This document shows, in pieces, positions 6,490-64,000 of a stretch of DNA of 64,000 bases; the stretch's first letter is position 1; every line of letters begins with the position of its first letter. The DNA is taken from contig JBGSMV010000016.1 in NCBI GenBank assembly GCA_041739995.1, positions 11,650-75,649 of the forward strand, written 5' to 3'. Both the position numbers and the translations under genes were made by a program. This DNA comes from Bdellovibrionota bacterium. GTDB taxonomy: Bacteria; Bdellovibrionota_C; UBA2361; JBGSMV01. A model generated the notes under the pieces. The model did no database searches. It was not told where the DNA came from and saw nothing but the letters and a program-made list of their open reading frames with translations.

Positions 6490-7422
6490 ATGGCTAGCAA
6501 CGACCCAGCCGCACCTAATCAAGCGGCTCAAGAACAGGCAATACTAGCCGAAGTAGGGCGAACCGCGTTGCGACTTGGCTCCTGTGACCCAGTCTGGCTT
6601 AAAGATGGAGTCGCGCCGACTTTTAGCCTCACAGAGAATCCTAAAGCTGAGAGCCAGACTCCTGGTAGTCCAGGGGTAACTGGTATCGAAGCTAAGAAGC
6701 CAGAAATGATTTTGCTACACGGGCTCTTCGGCGCCTTATCGAACTGGGATTCCACCTTCCCGCTCTTTAGCGCCTTCAGTGAACCCATCGCGCTGCAGTT
6801 CCCGATTCTTACTGGCCACCGTTCGGAAGTTAAGGTGAAAGCACTTGCTGCCTATACCGAATATCTTGTGCGCTTAAGAAAGCTGGGGCCAGTAGCACTT
6901 TGTGGTAACTCGCTGGGCGGTCACGTGGCCATGCGTCTTTGTTTGGCATCGCCCGAACTGGTCGACTGTTTAATCTTGTCAGGAACCTCAGGCCTGTATG
7001 AGCACACCGTTGACGCACTCCCCGTTCGTCCGGATGAACGCTTTGTACGTGAGCATATGGCGCGAGTGTTCTTCGGCAAGCAGTTTGTGACCGAGGATGC
7101 CATCAAGGAGGTTCATCAGATTCTTAAGAGTCGCGTAAATGTCCTGAACATTATTCATGCAGCGCGCAGTGCCAAGAAAGATAATCTGCAGAAGCTTCTT
7201 CCTCAGATTAAAGTACCTACGCTGCTGCTGTGGGGAGAGGATGATAAGGTTACCACCATGGACGTGGCGCGACAGTTCAAAGCGCTTCTTCCAAACTCAG
7301 AGCTCCACTCAATTAAGAACTGTGGACATGCGCCAATGATTGAGCACCCAGAATGGTTCTCAGGGCACGTTGAGAGGTTTCTCAAGAAGAACTCGCGATA
7401 TTATAAAGTTGCTGGTACATAA
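6490..7422 (+). CDS. Alpha/beta fold hydrolase
   Basis: LLHGLFG oxyanion motif, GNSLGG nucleophile elbow, PTLLLWGEDD, and CGHAP catalytic His. Confidence 0.9.
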   Translation: MASNDPAAPNQAAQEQAILAEVGRTALRLGSCDPVWLKDGVAPTFSLTENPKAESQTPGSPGVTGIEAKKPEMILLHGLFGALSNWDSTFPLFSAFSEPIALQFPILTGHRSEVKVKALAAYTEYLVRLRKLGPVALCGNSLGGHVAMRLCLASPELVDCLILSGTSGLYEHTVDALPVRPDERFVREHMARVFFGKQFVTEDAIKEVHQILKSRVNVLNIIHAARSAKKDNLQKLLPQIKVPTLLLWGEDDKVTTMDVARQFKALLPNSELHSIKNCGHAPMIEHPEWFSGHVERFLKKNSRYYKVAGT

Positions 7423-7510
7423 CGGCATGGTTTGGACGTGCAGTCTTTTAGGAATACAGCCTTTTAGTAGCGCCATTTTTTGTAGCGCAGTCAAAGCAAG
7501 GGGAGTCTAG

Positions 7511-8062
7511 ATGGAACGCACTTCCGGTAGCACGAAGTTCCCGCTCGGGTCCAAGCTTCCTTCGTTTGCATTGCCGAATACCGATGGTCGCGAGGTTGAT
7601 GACTCTTACCTTCGAGAAGGGAAGATGGCGCTGGTGGTATTCACCTGCAACCACTGTCCCTACGTCAAGGGCAGTGAAGCAAAGCTCATCGAGCTGGCAA
7701 AGCAGTACGAACCATCGGCTCTTCGAGTGGTTGCGATAAGTTCAAATGACGCGACCAAGTATCCAGAAGACTCTTTCGAGCTTATGAAGTCTAAAGCTGC
7801 TGAGCTCGCGATACCGTATCCATATCTCTATGACGAGTCACAGGACATAGCGCGTTTGTTCGACGCAGCGTGTACTCCAGAATGCTATCTCTTTGATGCC
7901 AGCGGTTCATTGGTTTTTCATGGCGCGATAAATGATAGTCCCAAGAGTGCCGCCGGTGTGAGCCGCGCCTACCTTGCAAAAGCTTTACAGCAACTTAGCG
8001 AGGGGCAGAAACCAGATCCCGCAGAAGCGCATCCGATTGGCTGTTCAATTAAGTGGAAATAG
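7511..8062 (+). CDS. Thioredoxin family (AhpC/TSA-like) protein
   Basis: FTCNHCPYV, ISSNDA, AACTPE and C-terminal PIGCSIKWK, all typical of this family. Confidence 0.9.
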   Translation: MERTSGSTKFPLGSKLPSFALPNTDGREVDDSYLREGKMALVVFTCNHCPYVKGSEAKLIELAKQYEPSALRVVAISSNDATKYPEDSFELMKSKAAELAIPYPYLYDESQDIARLFDAACTPECYLFDASGSLVFHGAINDSPKSAAGVSRAYLAKALQQLSEGQKPDPAEAHPIGCSIKWK

Positions 8063-8093
8063 AGGGCGTTTGATGAGGGACTCCCAAAAAGGG

Positions 8094-8127
8094 AAAAAAG
8101 TTAAGTGGGCGGGGGAGCCCACTTAAC
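8094..8127 (-). terminator. Intrinsic terminator
   Basis: Perfect 11-bp stem GTTAAGTGGGC/GCCCACTTAAC followed by T6 on the minus strand. Confidence 0.8.
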
Positions 8128-8191
8128 GAGGAGTCAGGCATTCATTTCCCGTGTCCCCAGTGTGGAATGACACGGATGAATGAAAGGGTAT
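8094..8191 (-). ncRNA. Candidate sigma54-dependent small RNA (~98 nt)
   Basis: Sigma54 -24/-12 promoter at the correct distance, a 5' hairpin, a single-stranded CCUGACUCCUC linker, and an 11-bp terminator stem followed by U6. No SD-led ORF. Confidence 0.6.
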
Positions 8192-8200
8192 AGGAGTCTA

Positions 8201-8217
8201 ATGCGATTCTTGTGCCA
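8201..8217 (-). promoter_or_regulatory. Sigma54 (RpoN) -24/-12 promoter
   Basis: Minus strand reads TGGCACAAGAATCGCAT, i.e. TGGCAC-N5-TcGCA with exact GG-N10-GC spacing. Confidence 0.7.
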
Positions 8218-8364
8218 GGGGTGAGGGGGCCGAATTGAGGGGTATGTCCCTATCAATCTAGTTCCCATGCTTGGGCGATTCTGCTTCAGAGATAGTACAT
8301 TTTGTTGGGTAATTTGGTGGCAAGCTTAGGTAAAGCCACCAGAAGAATATTGATGGGGGATACA

Positions 8365-10356
8365 ATGAAAAGTGATTCCAAGCTCTTAAGTGATTTAGCG
8401 CTAACCGTAAGGGTGTTGTCGGCTGAAGCGGTCGAAAAGGCTAATTCTGGGCACCCGGGGCTCCCGATGGGTGCCGCTGATTTCGCCTCCCTATTATGGG
8501 CGGATTTCCTTCGATTTAACCCCCAAGACCCGAAGTGGCCAAACCGTGACCGCTTCATCCTCTCGGCCGGGCATGGCTGCATGTTGCTCTACACCCTTAC
8601 TCACCTCTTTGGGTACGACTTGCCAATGAAGGAACTTCAGAGCTTCCGCCAGTGGGAGAGCAAAACACCGGGACATCCTGAGTTTGGGTTTACTCCGGGC
8701 GTAGAAGCAACTACTGGTCCGTTGGGGCAGGGCTTTTCGAACGGAGTTGGCGTCGCGCTTTCGGGCAAGATGCTTGCTGAGCAGTATTCACCTGAGATGT
8801 TCAATTATCGAGTCTTCGCCTTGGTAAGCGATGGCGATCTCATGGAAGGGATTACGTCCGAGGCTGCTTCGCTTGCAGGTCACCTTGGCCTCGACAACCT
8901 CATTTATCTATACGACGACAACAAGATTTCTCTTGCCGGGAAAACGGACGTGTCGTTTACCGAATCAGTTCCGAAGCGTTTCGAGTCGTACGGGTGGTCG
9001 GTGCAAAGCTGTGATGGCCATAATCCAGACGAGATCCGCGCATGCTTAGATCGTGCCGTTCAAGAGAAAGGAAAGCCAAAGATTATTTGCTGTCGAACCA
9101 CAATCGGCAAAGGTTCCCCGAACAAAGAAGGAGACTGCGAGGTGCATGGTGCCCCGCTAGGAAAAGACGAGCTTGCTGCAACCAAGAAGAATCTTGGCTG
9201 GACTAGCGAGGAGCCGTTCTTTGTGCCTCCTCAAGTACAGAGCTTCTGCGCTGCTGCTATTGAGCAAAAGAAGAAGGAGTACTCGGAATGGCAAGCGAGC
9301 TTCAAGAAATGGGGCGACGCGAACTCAAGTAAGGCAGCGCTTTGGAAGGCTCAGTCTGAGCGTGTAGTACCGTCGGGACTAAAAGGAGAGCTACTCAAGA
9401 GTCTCGGAGAGATTAAGAAGGATTCAACTCGCAATCTTTCAGGCAAGGCGATTCAAATTATTGCCAAGCACGTGCCTTACTTCGTGGGTGGATCGGCTGA
9501 CCTTGAGCCTTCGACTAAGACACTCATTAAGGACACGACTGAGATTCAAGCCGGCAAGTTTGCCGGGCGCAATATTCGGTTCGGTGTTCGTGAACATGCA
9601 ATGGGCGCTGCGGTGAATGGGCTTGCATACCAACAATGCTGGTTCCCGTTCGGTTCTACATTCTTGGTGTTTTCAGATTATATGCGCCCGACGATTCGGC
9701 TCGCGGCGCTCTCGCATCTGCAATCACTGTTTATTTTTACTCATGATTCATTTTGGGTAGGAGAAGATGGGCCTACTCATGAGCCGATTGAGCAGGTGCA
9801 AAGCCTGCGGCTTATTCCGCATGTAAACGTGTATAGACCGGCTGATGGTGTAGAGGTGGCGATGAGCTACATGTCCGCTTTGGAGAATAAGTCGACCCCA
9901 AGTGTGATGATATTTACTCGCCAAGACCTCCCCATAGTCGCTCGACCATCTTCGGCGACGCCTGAAGATGTGTTGAAGGGCGGTTATGTGGTGACTGAGG
10001 CTGCTTCTCCTGATGTGGTGTTAGTAGCCACCGGTTCTGAGGTTTGGGTAGCGCAAGAAGCGGCCACCAAGTTGGGCGCGAAGGGCGTGAAGGCCCGCGT
10101 TGTCTCGATGCCATGTGTGGAGCTTTTCTTGAAGCAACCAGCGCAGTATCGTGATTCAGTGCTCCCAAAAGGAGTTCGCCGCGTCTCGATAGAAGCGGGC
10201 ACCACGGTCGGTTGGGAAAGGATTGCGGGTAGCGACGGACTCCTGATCGGAATCGATCACTATGGTGCTTCTGCTCCTGGTGGATTATTGGCAGAGAAGT
10301 TTGGATTTACCCCAGACCAGGTCGTAGGGAAGATCTCTGGGTTTCTAGGCAAATAG
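8365..10356 (+). CDS. tkt: Transketolase
   Basis: SGHPGLPMGAA, NRDRFILSAGH, TPGHPE, GDLMEG, GVREHAM and GEDGPTH motifs. Start placed at the SD-preceded ATG 8365. Confidence 0.97.
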   Translation: MKSDSKLLSDLALTVRVLSAEAVEKANSGHPGLPMGAADFASLLWADFLRFNPQDPKWPNRDRFILSAGHGCMLLYTLTHLFGYDLPMKELQSFRQWESKTPGHPEFGFTPGVEATTGPLGQGFSNGVGVALSGKMLAEQYSPEMFNYRVFALVSDGDLMEGITSEAASLAGHLGLDNLIYLYDDNKISLAGKTDVSFTESVPKRFESYGWSVQSCDGHNPDEIRACLDRAVQEKGKPKIICCRTTIGKGSPNKEGDCEVHGAPLGKDELAATKKNLGWTSEEPFFVPPQVQSFCAAAIEQKKKEYSEWQASFKKWGDANSSKAALWKAQSERVVPSGLKGELLKSLGEIKKDSTRNLSGKAIQIIAKHVPYFVGGSADLEPSTKTLIKDTTEIQAGKFAGRNIRFGVREHAMGAAVNGLAYQQCWFPFGSTFLVFSDYMRPTIRLAALSHLQSLFIFTHDSFWVGEDGPTHEPIEQVQSLRLIPHVNVYRPADGVEVAMSYMSALENKSTPSVMIFTRQDLPIVARPSSATPEDVLKGGYVVTEAASPDVVLVATGSEVWVAQEAATKLGAKGVKARVVSMPCVELFLKQPAQYRDSVLPKGVRRVSIEAGTTVGWERIAGSDGLLIGIDHYGASAPGGLLAEKFGFTPDQVVGKISGFLGK

Positions 10357-58223: not shown

Positions 58224-59740
<1,517 letters not shown>

Positions 59741-60556
59741 TAAGGAAAGTGAATCCGTGATGGAACCTGAAAGGGTTCCTATATTCGGACATATTCACGG
59801 ACCTTAGGTAAGACATCCGAAAGGACGAGGCTTGAGGAGCCTTAACGACGAAATTATTTGTATCACTGAGCAGTTTCTATCGATGGTCTCTGTTTATGGG
59901 TCCATTAAAAATTTACTTTTGAGTAGAAGAGCTCTCTTCATTCTGAATGTTATCAATTCACCTGCGCGCAAGCGTATGTGGATATCAGAATGGGAAAATT
60001 ATATTCCGCTTGGGAATGGTTGGTGTTCGCTGTCGAGAGTTTTCTCTTGCGGTGCGCGACAATATTACCCCAGCGTGAATCTGAGTCATTATTCTCAAGT
60101 GCATTGACATTAATCGAAAGTAAATCTGTAACGATGAAGTGCATCCGTAAGGATGTGCAACATCTGACATTGATATTGCTGATAAAGTAGGCGCTCATGT
60201 TATCTGGAATCCTCACAGCAGTGAGGATCTCTGGAAACTAAGAATTCTGCGGGGAAGAAATTCTCCGTGGAACGTTGCTCAAGTTTTTTAAGAAAAAACT
60301 TAAGCTTTTAAGGGTGCACGGTGGATGCCTTGGCAGTGGAAGGCGATGAAGGACGTTGTATGGCTGCGAAAAGCCTCGGTTAGCCGCCAAACAGGCTTTG
60401 ACCCGGGGATGTCCGAATGGGGAAACCTGACCGTAAGGTCGTCTCGAAAGAGAAGCTAACGTGGGGAATTGAAAAATCTTAGTACCCACAGGAAAAGAAA
60501 TCGGAAGAGATTCCCTCAGTAGTGCGAGCGAACAGGGAAGAGCCTAAACCTGAGGA

Positions 60557-60700
60557 GCATTGATGTCCGAGCGGCGCGAAGCGTTGCGAGGACTCCGCCA
60601 AAGTCCGCGAAGCGGACGACGGCGAGTTGTTCCTCCTGAATGAAGAGCTCGACTTCGCAAAGCTAAGCTTTGCTTCGTCGGAGCCCTTCGTCGCATTGAT
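60557..60700 (+). mobile_element. 128-bp palindromic insertion with an 8-bp direct repeat inside 23S domain I
   Basis: GCATTGAT at 60557-60564 and 60693-60700; removing the insert and one repeat restores a perfect 20-bp hairpin. Confidence 0.6.
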
Positions 60701-60871
60701 AACCATCGGTTATCAATGCTCCTCAGGGGTTGTAGGACGTATAATAAAGCAGACTCGAGTTGGTAGCTGAACCCAGTTGGAAAGCTGGAGCATAGAAGGT
60801 GATACTCCTGTAAGCGAAACTAACAAAAGCTGTGAATACGTTCCTGAGTACTACGGGACACTTGAAATCCT

Positions 60872-60911
<40 letters not shown>

Positions 60912-62394
60912 TCCACTGACCGATAGCGAACTAGTACCGTGAGGGAAAGGTGAAAAGAAGCCCGATAAGGGTAGAGAAAAGATCCTGAAACCGTGCATCT
61001 ACAAGCAGTCGAAGATCCGTTTCGTCTTCGGACGAACGATCGACGGCGTACCTTTTGTATCATGAACCAGCGAGTTACGCCTCAGTAGCGTTTAGGTTAA
61101 GCCGTAAGGTGGAGCCGCAGCGAAAGCGAGTCTTAAAAGGGCGTTAGTTACTGGGGGTAGACCCGAAGCCAGTGTGATCTACTCATGATCAGGATGAAGC
61201 CAGGATAACACCTGGTGGAGGTCCGAACCGGTGGGAGTTAAAAATCCTTCGGATGAATTGTGGGTAGGGGTGAAAGGCTAATCAAACCTGGCGATAGCTG
61301 GTTCTCCTCGAAAGATATTTAGGTATCGTCTCGGACAATATATTTAGTGGGGGTAGAGCACTGATTGGACTAGGGGCCCTACCAGGCTACCAAACCCAGA
61401 TAGTCTCCGAATACCACTAAAGTCAGAATCCGGGAAACAGTTGACGGGTGATAAGGTCCGTTAGCGAAAGGGAAAGAGCCCAGACCATCAGCTAAGGTCC
61501 CAAAGTACATGCTAAGTGGAAAAGGAAGTGAGTGGACTCTGCCAGCTAGGAGGTTGGCTTAGAAGCAGCCATCCTTTAAAGAAAGCGTAACAGCTCACTA
61601 GTCAAGTCCGCTCGCGCCGAAGATTCAACGGGGCTAAGCATGTCACCGAAGCTATGGATTTATTGATCCTTCGGGATCAAGGAATGGTAGAGGAGCGTTC
61701 CCTGCTGCGTTGAAGCGTGATCGAAAGGACACGTGGAGCGCAGGGAAGTGAGTATGCTGGTATAAGTAACGATAAAAAGAGTGAAAATCTCTTTCGCCGA
61801 AAGTCTAAGGTTTCCTGGGCTAGGGCAATCCTCCCAGGGTAAGCCGGATCCTAAGACGAGGCCGAAAGGCGTAGTCGATGGAAAACAGGTTAATATTCCG
61901 TGCCAATTAGTGGCATTTGAACGAAGGGGAGACGGAGAAGGGTAGGTATTGCGTCATTGTGGTTCGACGTCTAAGCCCGTAGGGAGTCAAGATAGGCAAA
62001 TCCGTTTTGACATATCCCGAGAAGCGAATGTGAGCGAAGGGGCAACCCGGAGCAAAATGTATTGATCCCATGCTTCCAAGAAAATCCTCGTAGTGAGTCA
62101 CAAAATTGTCCGTACTTCAAACCGACACAGGTAGACTGGTAGAGAATACCAAGGCGCTTGAGAGAACCGTCCTTAAGGAACTTAACACATTGCCACCGTA
62201 ACTTCGGGAGAAGGTGGGCCTTTGATGGTGAAGGATGCACATCCGGAGCTGTTGAGGGTCGCAGATGGCAGGGGGTAGCGACTGTTTAGCAAAAACACAG
62301 GGCTCTGCAAATTCGCAAGAAGATGTATAGGGTCTGACGCGTGCCCGGTGCCGGAAGGTTAAGGTGAGTGGTCAGCGCAAGCGAAGCTACGAAC

Positions 62395-63351
<957 letters not shown>

Positions 63352-63612
63352 GCGTAACGACTTCCCCATTGTCTCAAGGACGGACTCAGTGAAATTGAAT
63401 TCTCGGTAAAAATGCCGAGTTGCCGCAGAAAGACGAAAAGACCCCGTGCACCTTTACTATACCTTTGCTTTGATCCCGGGGACTTTATGTGTAGCATAGG
63501 TGGGAGACTTTGAAGTTCACGCGCTAGCGAGAATGGAGTCAACAGTGAAATACCACCCTTAAAGTCACTGGTTTCTAACCGCGAGAAGTAATCCTTCTCC
63601 GAGACAGAGCAT

Positions 63613-63643
<31 letters not shown>

Positions 63644-63797
63644 CAAAGAGTAACGGAGGCGCGCAATGGTAGGTTCAGCGTGCTTGGAAACCACGCGTTG
63701 AGTGTAAAAGCATAAACCTGCTTGACTGTGAGAGGGACACCTCGAACAGGGACGAAAGTCGGCTTTAGTGATCCGGCGGTTCTGTATGGAAGGGCCG

Positions 63798-63911
<114 letters not shown>

Positions 63912-63912
63912 T

Positions 63913-63995
<83 letters not shown>

Positions 63996-64000
63996 TTCTG

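What the first reader, a model, noticed from the sequence alone, without database searches (positions are those of the whole stretch)
8094..8217. Unannotated sigma54-driven small RNA with an exposed anti-Shine-Dalgarno seed
Seen on the minus strand: a near-consensus sigma54 promoter (TGGCAC-AAGAA-TCGCA) predicts +1 at an A (8191). It is followed by a bulged hairpin (CAUUCAU-CCGUGUC / GACACGG-gaa-AUGAAUG), a single-stranded CCUGACUCCUC linker, and an 11-bp terminator with a UCCCCC loop plus U6. This is a complete ~98-nt transcription unit with no SD-led ORF, convergent with the thioredoxin gene and divergent from tkt. Known: sigma54-dependent sRNAs exist (Qrr, GlmY, Myxococcus Pxr), and C-rich unpaired seeds pair with ribosome-binding sites. 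Inference: a new trans-acting translational repressor under enhancer-binding-protein control. CUCCUC complements GAGGAG and UCCCCC complements GGGGGA, which is exactly the SD of the adjacent tkt (GGGGGAtacaATG).
Basis: partly seen in the sequence, partly recalled or inferred. Interest (0 to 1): 0.8.

Follow-up and report, generated by a model that had tools for sequence, protein, structure and literature searches.

The report
Conserved sigma-54-driven small RNA gene
This is a real, previously uncatalogued small regulatory RNA gene, switched on through the sigma-54 system and shared by about two dozen uncultured Bdellovibrio-like species, but what it regulates is still unknown.

Summary
On the minus strand, 8217->8094 carries a -24/-12 promoter, a 5' hairpin, an unpaired CCUGACUCCUC linker, and an 11-bp terminator with a UCCCCC loop and U6. 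Each element alone is at chance level in this window. Conservation makes the case. A covariance model built without the promoter finds 25 copies in 24 of 91 genomes of the order and none in 33 other genomes of the phylum. All 25 copies have TGGCAY-N5-NNGYW upstream. A repeated G[GT]NAC enhancer-like site lies at a fixed -47 to -50 in 16 of 25. Both helices covary. CURACUCC is invariant in 25 of 25. rpoN and ten activator genes are present; Hfq and ProQ were not found. Rfam has no match, and four literature searches found no description. The gene sits divergent from tkt in 21 of 25 copies. However, the proposed pairing with the tkt ribosome site is not conserved and tkt does not stand out as a target. 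No target could be identified and no RNA data exist. Verdict: a new family of a known kind, the sigma-54-dependent small RNA; the anti-Shine-Dalgarno mechanism remains inference.

The parts
8245..8266 (-). Putative enhancer (UAS): two half-sites, GGGAAC (8266-8261) and GGGACA (8250-8245), 16 bp apart, starting 48 nt upstream of the TGGCA
   Evidence: The pattern G[GT]NAC-N9-14-G[GT]NAC is present at -47 to -50 in 16 of 25 copies, against a shuffle mean of 0.38 and maximum of 3. Looser forms occur in 6 more copies. The same arrangement lies at -48/-47 before two other sigma-54-like promoters of this genome.
8202..8217 (-). Sigma-54 (-24/-12) promoter TGGCAC-AAGAA-TCGCA; GG at 8216-8215, GC at 8204-8203
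   Evidence: Read and matched. TGGCAY-N5-NNGYW is present upstream of 25 of 25 copies that were found with a model not containing the promoter.
8191..8191 (-). Predicted transcription start (A, 12 nt downstream of the C of the -12 GC)
   Evidence: Inferred from promoter geometry; not measured.
8183..8189 (-). 5' unpaired ACCCUUU
   Evidence: Unpaired in the minimum-energy fold. Exact ACCCUUU occurs in 9 of 25 copies, with near variants in others.
8139..8182 (-). Hairpin 1 (bulged; variable in sequence and length between species)
   Evidence: Fold. Per-copy folds of the 5' part have mean z -1.95, with 12 of 25 below -2 and 17 of 25 below -1. In the alignment fitted to model R2, 7 of 7 pairs show changes on both sides and 92% of cells are paired.
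8128..8140 (-). Invariant single-stranded linker UGCCUGACUCCUC (candidate seed; CUCCUC complements GAGGAG)
   Evidence: Unpaired. CURACUCC is present in 25 of 25 copies and GCCURACUCC in 24 of 25.
8100..8127 (-). Intrinsic terminator hairpin, 11 bp, loop UCCCCC (8116-8111)
   Evidence: 99.6% of cells are paired, 6 of 11 pairs have compensatory changes, and 0 of 500 shuffles reach this. The loop holds CCCC in 19 of 25 copies.
8094..8099 (-). U6 tract ending the transcript (about 98 nt from 8191)
   Evidence: Predicted transcript lengths in the family are 84-131 nt, median 96.5.
8365..10356 (+). Transketolase gene (tkt), divergent neighbour; context, not part of the RNA
   Evidence: Pfam Transketolase_N at 1.5e-127. 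The RNA gene is divergent from tkt in 21 of 25 copies.
7511..8062 (+). AhpC/TSA-redoxin family gene, convergent neighbour; context
   Evidence: Pfam AhpC-TSA at 6.1e-17.

Best explanation
This is the gene of a roughly 98-nt small RNA. It is transcribed only when an enhancer-binding protein, bound to a two-part G[GT]NAC site about 50 nt upstream of the -24 element, activates sigma-54 RNA polymerase. The transcript has an unpaired C/U-rich 5' end, a species-variable hairpin, an invariant unpaired linker (UGCCURACUCC, followed by UC in most copies), and an intrinsic terminator whose loop is usually a run of C. The most likely mode of action is Hfq-independent base pairing of the unpaired C/U-rich stretches with purine-rich ribosome-binding regions of mRNAs encoded elsewhere, which lowers their translation. 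Shown here by comparison: the gene, its promoter type, the upstream site, the two helices and the invariant linker. Inferred: that it is expressed, that it acts by base pairing, and that it represses. Unknown: the activator, the signal and the targets.
For: The elements are present and fold as described.
A model built from the transcript alone finds 25 copies in 24 of 91 genomes of the order and 0 in 33 other genomes of the phylum.
All 25 copies have TGGCAY-N5-NNGYW at the right distance. This includes the 6 divergent copies found only by the model.
The upstream repeat is at -47 to -50 in 16 of 25 copies, against 0.38 expected.
The composite of upstream site plus promoter is rare: 4 of 157 promoter-like matches in this genome, and 5 matches against 0 for the reversed control in five relatives, 3 of the 5 being this gene.
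Terminator: 99.6% paired, 6 of 11 pairs compensatory.
Hairpin 1: 7 of 7 pairs compensatory and 92% paired, against 29-45% when the partners are slid.
The linker CURACUCC is invariant in 25 of 25 copies while the flanking stems change.
No conserved reading frame: the AUG at 8141 is CUG, UUG or AAG in other copies, and loop lengths differ by non-multiples of 3.
rpoN is present, as are 10 activator genes, 9 with an HTH_8 DNA-binding domain.
Hfq and ProQ were not found and CsrA is present, in a genome 91% complete. This fits C-rich-seed RNAs of Hfq-less bacteria (established knowledge; RepG abstract seen in the listing).
Against: There is no expression evidence: no RNA run holds the locus.
No target was found. 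Exact complements of the linker are not more frequent than my hand estimate for chance, and the two longest lie antisense inside genes.
The 10-mer complement is not enriched in carrier genomes against a reversed control.
The best duplexes at start sites (-24.8 kcal/mol) lie within the intragenic background, minimum -25.5.
tkt is not a conserved or outstanding target.
The first 8 bp of the terminator stem are identical in 19 of 25 copies. That is more sequence constraint than structure alone needs and could point to protein recognition instead.
One divergent relative (G042, L106) keeps the promoter, the upstream site and the C-rich loop but has a different linker.
The hairpin-1 alignment was fitted to the model and leans towards the structure (tool caveat).
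Confidence: 0.6

Rival explanations
1. The RNA is a locus-specific regulator of tkt or of the abhydrolase-redoxin-tkt gene row. It could act as an antisense partner of read-through transcripts that cross the gap on the plus strand. Alternatively, its activator's binding site may sit in the tkt promoter region, so that the RNA gene and tkt are controlled together.
For: The gene is divergent from tkt in 21 of 25 copies across eight family-level groups, while the other neighbour varies. On the plus strand the hairpin has no U tract after it, so read-through from the redoxin gene is conceivable. The upstream site lies between the two genes.
Against: Four copies lie elsewhere, including a second copy in G013. 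There is no conserved complementarity to the tkt start region, mean z -0.19 over 21 loci. In this genome tkt ranks 734 to 1759 of 2008. The whole abhydrolase-redoxin-tkt row is itself syntenic, so the adjacency may simply be inherited. The invariant linker points to a trans partner.
Confidence: 0.15
2. The RNA acts by binding or titrating a protein. The invariant linker together with the sequence-conserved 5' arm of the terminator would be a protein recognition site rather than a base-pairing seed.
For: GCCURACUCC is invariant in 24 of 25 copies. The stem GUUAAGUG/CACUUAAC is identical in 19 of 25 copies, which exceeds what structure needs. No mRNA target is enriched.
Against: The more divergent copies change the stem by compensatory substitutions (GUUGGGUGGG/CCCACCCAAC, GUUGAGUGAACC/GGUUCACUCAAC), which is typical of a purely structural helix. 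There are no GGA motifs for CsrA in most copies. No candidate protein is known.
Confidence: 0.15
3. There is no RNA gene. The hairpin would only terminate or stabilise the convergent redoxin transcript, and the promoter match would be chance.
For: The promoter pattern and terminator-like sites are each at chance frequency in this window.
Against: The U tract is on the minus strand only. The promoter is kept in 25 of 25 copies at a fixed distance, together with an upstream site. The unit persists where the downstream gene is not convergent (L009, L012, L013, L021).
Confidence: 0.02
4. The unit encodes a small protein. A 30-codon frame runs from AUG 8141 to 8049.
For: An ORF of 30 aa is listed at 8049-8141 on the minus strand.
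Against: The frame runs through the terminator. The AUG is not conserved (CUG, UUG, AAG). Loop-length differences of 1, 2 or more nt break the frame. No Shine-Dalgarno sequence precedes it.
Confidence: 0.02

Closest known systems
Sigma-54/EBP-dependent non-coding RNAs of Desulfovibrio vulgaris (Kazakov et al. 2015, PMC4641369; passages read)
   Same: These are orphan -24/-12 promoters with an activator site that drive short non-coding RNAs. That sigma-54 regulome lists 4 ncRNAs, each assigned to a dedicated activator.
   Different: No sequence relation was found (Rfam scan empty; own-genome and relatives searches). In the regulon table of that paper three of the four ncRNAs are named by their position beside the activator gene; here no activator gene was found beside the RNA in any of the 19 loci whose neighbouring ORFs were scanned. 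The lineage is different.
Qrr, GlmY and Pxr
   Same: They share the promoter class, a size of about 100 nt, stem-loops followed by an intrinsic terminator, and control by a response-regulator-type activator.
   Different: None of the Rfam families matches, even at E up to 10. Qrr and GlmY act with Hfq or RapZ in gammaproteobacteria (recalled), whereas Hfq was not found here. The upstream site differs from LuxO or GlrR sites (recalled).
RepG of Helicobacter pylori (abstract seen in the listing, PMC8295292) and the C-rich-seed RNAs RsaE/RoxS of Firmicutes (recalled)
   Same: They act without Hfq, through unpaired C- or C/U-rich stretches, one of them in a terminator loop, which pair with G-rich mRNA leaders or ribosome-binding sites. 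This is what the present RNA most plausibly works like.
   Different: There is no sequence or Rfam relation. Those RNAs are not sigma-54-dependent (recalled). The pairing is demonstrated for them and only inferred here.
CJnc230/FlmE of Campylobacter jejuni (RpoN-dependent small RNA; abstract seen in the listing, PMC11187230)
   Same: It is an RpoN-dependent small RNA in an Hfq-less bacterium that acts post-transcriptionally.
   Different: It belongs to the flagellar hierarchy. Here no flagellar context or target is evident, and there is no sequence relation.

Membership tests
Sigma-54-dependent small RNA gene (kind) | -24 GG / -12 GC promoter with correct spacing, conserved in homologues | tested here: met
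   TGGCAC-N5-TCGCA at 8217-8202. TGGCAY-N5-NNGYW is upstream of 25 of 25 copies.
Sigma-54-dependent small RNA gene (kind) | rpoN and enhancer-binding proteins encoded in the genome | tested here: met
   One Sigma54_DBD match at 1.9e-61 in a 531-aa frame. Ten strong Sigma54_activat proteins, 9 with HTH_8.
Sigma-54-dependent small RNA gene (kind) | Upstream activator binding site | tested here: met
   A repeated G[GT]NAC pair at -47 to -50 in 16 of 25 copies, against 0.38 expected. The binding protein is not identified.
Sigma-54-dependent small RNA gene (kind) | Short non-coding transcript ending at an intrinsic terminator | tested here: met
   covariation, no conserved frame.
Sigma-54-dependent small RNA gene (kind) | Transcript detected, and dependent on rpoN | not testable with these tools
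   No RNA run holds the locus.
Any Rfam 15 family (including Qrr, GlmY/GlmZ, Pxr, RsaE) | Match to the family covariance model | tested here: not met
   0 matches in 7900-8500 at E up to 10. Only rRNA matches in the window at gathering scores.
Anti-Shine-Dalgarno base-pairing repressor (mechanistic class) | Unpaired, conserved pyrimidine-rich seed | tested here: met
   The linker is unpaired. CURACUCC is present in 25 of 25 copies, and a C-rich loop in 19 of 25.
Anti-Shine-Dalgarno base-pairing repressor (mechanistic class) | Identifiable complementary target sites at ribosome-binding regions, conserved across carriers | tested here: inconclusive
   No enrichment or outlier was found. tkt is not supported as a target. 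Whole-genome comparative prediction across carriers could not be run.

The most novel reading that the evidence does not exclude
The RNA is the post-transcriptional arm of a lineage-specific enhancer-binding-protein regulon. The transcriptional arm would be secreted proteins of unknown function: the same upstream site plus promoter precedes a DUF1800/DUF1501 operon and unknown exported proteins. With three pyrimidine-rich unpaired stretches, one resembling the 16S anti-Shine-Dalgarno sequence, it could act as a broad competitor for strong ribosome-binding sites in bacteria that lack Hfq and ProQ. The length of the C run in the loop (6 versus about 12 C between two species of one genus) could tune its reach.
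Probability: 0.15. Interest if true: 0.7.

Novelty: new member of a known kind. Interest (0 to 1): 0.55.

Why it matters
Regulatory RNAs are almost unknown in Bdellovibrio-like bacteria, and all carriers found here are known only as metagenome-assembled genomes. This locus offers a complete, testable regulatory module: an activator site, a sigma-54 promoter, an invariant seed and a terminator. It is conserved over eight family-level groups, in a genome where Hfq and ProQ were not found. It could enter Rfam as a new family. It also gives a handle on an unknown signalling pathway, because the activator also appears to drive genes for secreted proteins. Finally, it adds a case of sigma-54-controlled riboregulation outside the model organisms. 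It does not overturn any concept.

Tried and rejected
- RNA evidence: no RNA holder is listed for 7511-8700.
- Exact-complement search of the linker in this genome: 359 hits of 9 nt or more. The counts are near my hand estimate for chance. The 14-mer and 12-mer hits lie antisense inside longer ORFs.
- Two-part motif searches combining the seeds gave nothing convincing.
- GGAGTYAGGC counts in 91 genomes were no higher than the reversed control, and no higher in carriers.
- Duplex-energy ranking of 2008 start regions: the top values lie within the intragenic background.
- tkt as target: rejected as a conserved target.
Of the 80 loci returned, only 1 matched the model (L166), and it has the same sequence as L063. 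The scan therefore adds nothing on distribution.
- The genome-contig scan returned the same species as the genome search, plus one chance hit without a promoter (L026).
- L020 (G050, E 0.008, a different part of the query) was dropped as spurious. The true G050 copy was later found on another contig.
- Orthologues of the DUF1800 regulon candidate were not found in five relatives with this query, so a conserved regulon could not be shown.
- MAFFT alignments (A1, A2, A5) put hairpin 1 out of register, so model R2 was built from two sequences with a hand-given structure.
- Identifying the activator by phylogenetic profiling was considered and not done, because its discriminating power is low.
- Three look-ups in earlier findings of this scan were made. 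The two by place and by sequence returned nothing. The one by words returned three findings from other genomes, one of which served as a lead.

Full report
**What is in the sequence**

Read on the minus strand, the finding holds these elements:
- TGGCACAAGAATCGCA at 8217-8202. GG is at 8216-8215 and GC at 8204-8203, so the two dinucleotides have the -24/-12 spacing and the start is predicted at A8191.
- An unpaired AUACCCUUU.
- A bulged hairpin at 8182-8139.
- The unpaired linker CCUGACUCCUC at 8138-8128.
- An 11-bp stem with loop UCCCCC at 8127-8100.
- U6 at 8099-8094.

The terminator scan reports exactly this site, on the minus strand only.

Each element alone is unremarkable. The promoter pattern occurs twice in the window against 1.9 expected. 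Terminator-like sites are at the shuffled frequency. No sigma-70-type promoter was found in 7400-9000.

The neighbours are a convergent AhpC/TSA-redoxin gene at 7511-8062 and, divergently, transketolase. Its GGGGGAtaca-ATG start is at 8365.

**Conservation**

The 299-bp gap is single-copy in its own genome. A DNA search of 60 relatives found a 50-nt core (8094-8142) at 81-100% identity in 17 genomes. An 18th match (L020) was weak, fell on another part of the query, and was dropped.

A pattern scan of 185,579 species genomes returned the same lineage only. These are metagenome-assembled genomes labelled Bdellovibrionota, Oligoflexia, Bdellovibrionales and the like. One chance hit in an Actinomycetota genome had no promoter.

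I built a covariance model from the transcripts alone, without the promoter. It finds 25 copies in 24 of 91 genomes of the order, with two copies in G013. It finds none in the 33 other genomes of the phylum. Carriers fall in 8 of 21 family-level groups: f1 4/4 plus the window's genome, f2 5/7, f5 1/1, f10 5/7, f11 1/1, f12 4/5, f15 1/1 and f20 2/5. The largest group, f8, has 0 of 36.

**Promoter and enhancer**

All 25 copies carry TGGCAY-N5-NNGYW. It lies 21-31 nt before the model's first position in 20 copies and 39-68 nt before it in the five f2-group copies, which have longer 5' parts (L016, L018, L019, L063, L064). Six of these copies were found only by the promoter-free model, so for them the promoter is an independent confirmation. 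Predicted transcripts are 84-131 nt, median 96.5.

Upstream of the promoter lies a pair of G[GT]NAC half-sites, often GGTAACC or TGTCACC, 12 to 17 bp apart.
- The strict pattern starts at -47 to -50 from the TGGCA in 16 of 25 copies, against 0.38 expected from shuffles and a maximum of 3. Looser forms occur in 6 more copies.
- In the window the half-sites are GGGAAC (8266-8261) and GGGACA (8250-8245).
- In this genome only 4 of 157 promoter-like matches have such a site. Three of them have it at -48/-47: this gene, a DUF1800/DUF1501 operon (C64), and a gene for an unknown exported 313-aa protein (C68). The fourth lies in a repetitive coding region.
- In five relatives the composite pattern gives 5 matches against 0 for the reversed control. 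Three are this gene and two precede unknown exported proteins in G001.

The genome encodes rpoN and ten strong Sigma54_activat proteins. Seven have the REC-AAA-HTH_8 architecture. I could not assign the site to any of them.

**Structure and invariant parts**

On the model alignment of 25 copies, the terminator helix is 99.6% paired. Six of its 11 pairs show changes on both sides, for example GUUGGGUGGG/CCCACCCAAC and GUUGAGUGAACC/GGUUCACUCAAC. None of 500 shuffles reaches this.

MAFFT could not register hairpin 1. I therefore built a second model from two sequences with a hand-given structure. It aligned 21 of the 25 copies; L019, L062, L063 and L064 fell below E 1e-5. On that alignment all 7 hairpin-1 pairs show changes on both sides and 92% of cells pair. 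When the partners are slid by 1-3 columns, pairing falls to 29-45%. That alignment is fitted to the structure, so the numbers lean its way.

As an independent check, I folded the 5' part of each copy on its own. The mean z is -1.95, with 12 of 25 below -2. The stems have unrelated sequences in different groups.

Between the helices, CURACUCC is invariant in 25 of 25 copies and GCCURACUCC in 24 of 25. The loop contains CCCC in 19 of 25. Exact ACCCUUU near the 5' end occurs in 9 of 25, with variants in others.

A coding reading is excluded. The only AUG is replaced by other triplets in relatives, and loop lengths vary out of frame.

**Context**

The RNA gene lies divergent from tkt in 21 of 25 copies. 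The exceptions are L013, the second G013 copy L021, L063 and L064. The far-side neighbour is usually the redoxin gene but varies: an OprB porin, a CDGSH protein, or unknown proteins.

I read the tkt upstream region in 32 further genomes.
- The 22 genomes from the 11 groups without the RNA have no divergent sigma-54-like promoter there.
- G042 (f12) has a diverged version. It keeps the upstream site, the promoter, a hairpin and a C-rich-loop terminator, but its linker reads CGUCUGACAUCGG.
- G025 (f2) has a sigma-54-like promoter in front of a lipoprotein-like ORF instead.

**Mechanism**

The invariant, unpaired, pyrimidine-rich linker between covarying helices is the usual signature of a base-pairing seed. 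CUCCUC complements GAGGAG and the C-run loop complements G-rich sites. Hfq and ProQ were not found in this 91%-complete genome, while CsrA is present. This resembles the Hfq-independent C-rich-seed RNAs; RepG pairs with a G-repeat in an mRNA leader (abstract seen).

I could not find targets.
- Exact complements are not enriched, and the longest lie antisense inside genes.
- The 10-mer complement is not enriched in carrier genomes.
- The best start-site duplexes are within background.

- GGGGGA is peculiar to this genome.
- Linker-to-tkt duplexes equal shuffles over 21 loci, mean z -0.19.
- tkt ranks 734, 1759 and 374 of 2008 for the loop, linker and 5' seeds.

No RNA-seq holder exists. Expression and sigma-54 dependence are therefore inferred from conservation only.

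**Comparison with what is known**

Rfam 15 has no match, even at E up to 10. Four literature searches found no paper describing this RNA (search listings only). They combined Bdellovibrio or Bdellovibrionota with small RNA, sigma-54 or RpoN, or sigma-54-dependent sRNA with anti-Shine-Dalgarno.

The kind itself is known. An RpoN-dependent RNA in Campylobacter appears in the listing. The sigma-54 regulome of Desulfovibrio vulgaris includes four ncRNAs with dedicated activators (passages of PMC4641369).

The present RNA is therefore a new family of a known kind. It has an unusually complete conserved control region and an unresolved link to tkt.

**Verdict**

The reading as a sigma-54/activator-controlled small RNA with an exposed conserved seed is supported. 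Translational repression is plausible but untested, and the tkt target is not supported.

Noticed in passing
own genome G000:C64:228028-228091 (locus L080, about 2029-2092) and G000:C68:183-245 (locus L081): Two further sigma-54-like promoters have the same G[GT]NAC pair at -48/-47. One lies before a DUF1800/DUF1501 operon and one before an unknown exported 313-aa protein. They may belong to the same activator's regulon. In C68 the predicted start is only about 2 nt before the ATG.
   Followed up: partly
L106 (G042:C1:544610-545390), about 426-560 on the strand divergent from tkt: A diverged homologue missed by the model. It keeps the upstream site, TGGCACGCTCTTCGCA, a hairpin and a terminator with a UCCCCCC-containing loop, but its linker reads CGUCUGACAUCGG instead of GCCUGACUCCUCG.
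   Followed up: partly
L110 (G025:C1:41770-42550): At the place divergent from tkt, this genome has a sigma-54-like promoter (TGGCATATGAATTGCT) with GGTAAC-like repeats upstream. It is followed by an ORF with a lipoprotein-type signal peptide instead of the RNA. The ORF has no similarity to the C64 or C68 proteins.
   Followed up: partly
L012 and L021 (G013, contigs C25 and C20): One genome holds two nearly identical copies of the RNA with an identical promoter. One copy is next to tkt. The other is next to TadE-like and COX15/CtaA genes and has a different upstream-site sequence.
   Followed up: no
L060 (123-219) and L061 (1501-1602): In two species of one genus the terminator loop differs mainly in the length of a C run: CACCCCCCG versus CACCCCCCCCCCCG.
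   Followed up: no
L016, L018, L019, L063, L064: The f2-group copies are longer (about 99-131 nt). They share an extra conserved pyrimidine-rich unpaired stretch, UCUCCUUGCUUCUGUU, directly before the invariant linker. In them the linker reads GCCUAACUCC, and four of the five loops (all but L016) are not C-rich.
   Followed up: no
own genome (whole): Hfq and ProQ were not found in a 91%-complete assembly. CsrA is present at C36:119537-119689, on the contig that also holds a flagellar rod gene (FlgG-like; named from its N-terminal sequence, recalled, no family scan) at about 110.5 kb.
   Followed up: partly
window 58224-64000: An rRNA operon: 16S at 58224-59740, and 23S from 60345, cut by the end of the window.
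   Followed up: no
window 8218-8240 (minus strand) / plus strand 8218-8245: An unusually C-rich stretch (ccccctcacccc, read on the minus strand) lies directly upstream of the -24 element. It is seen only in this genome and gives G runs on the tkt-sense strand.
   Followed up: no
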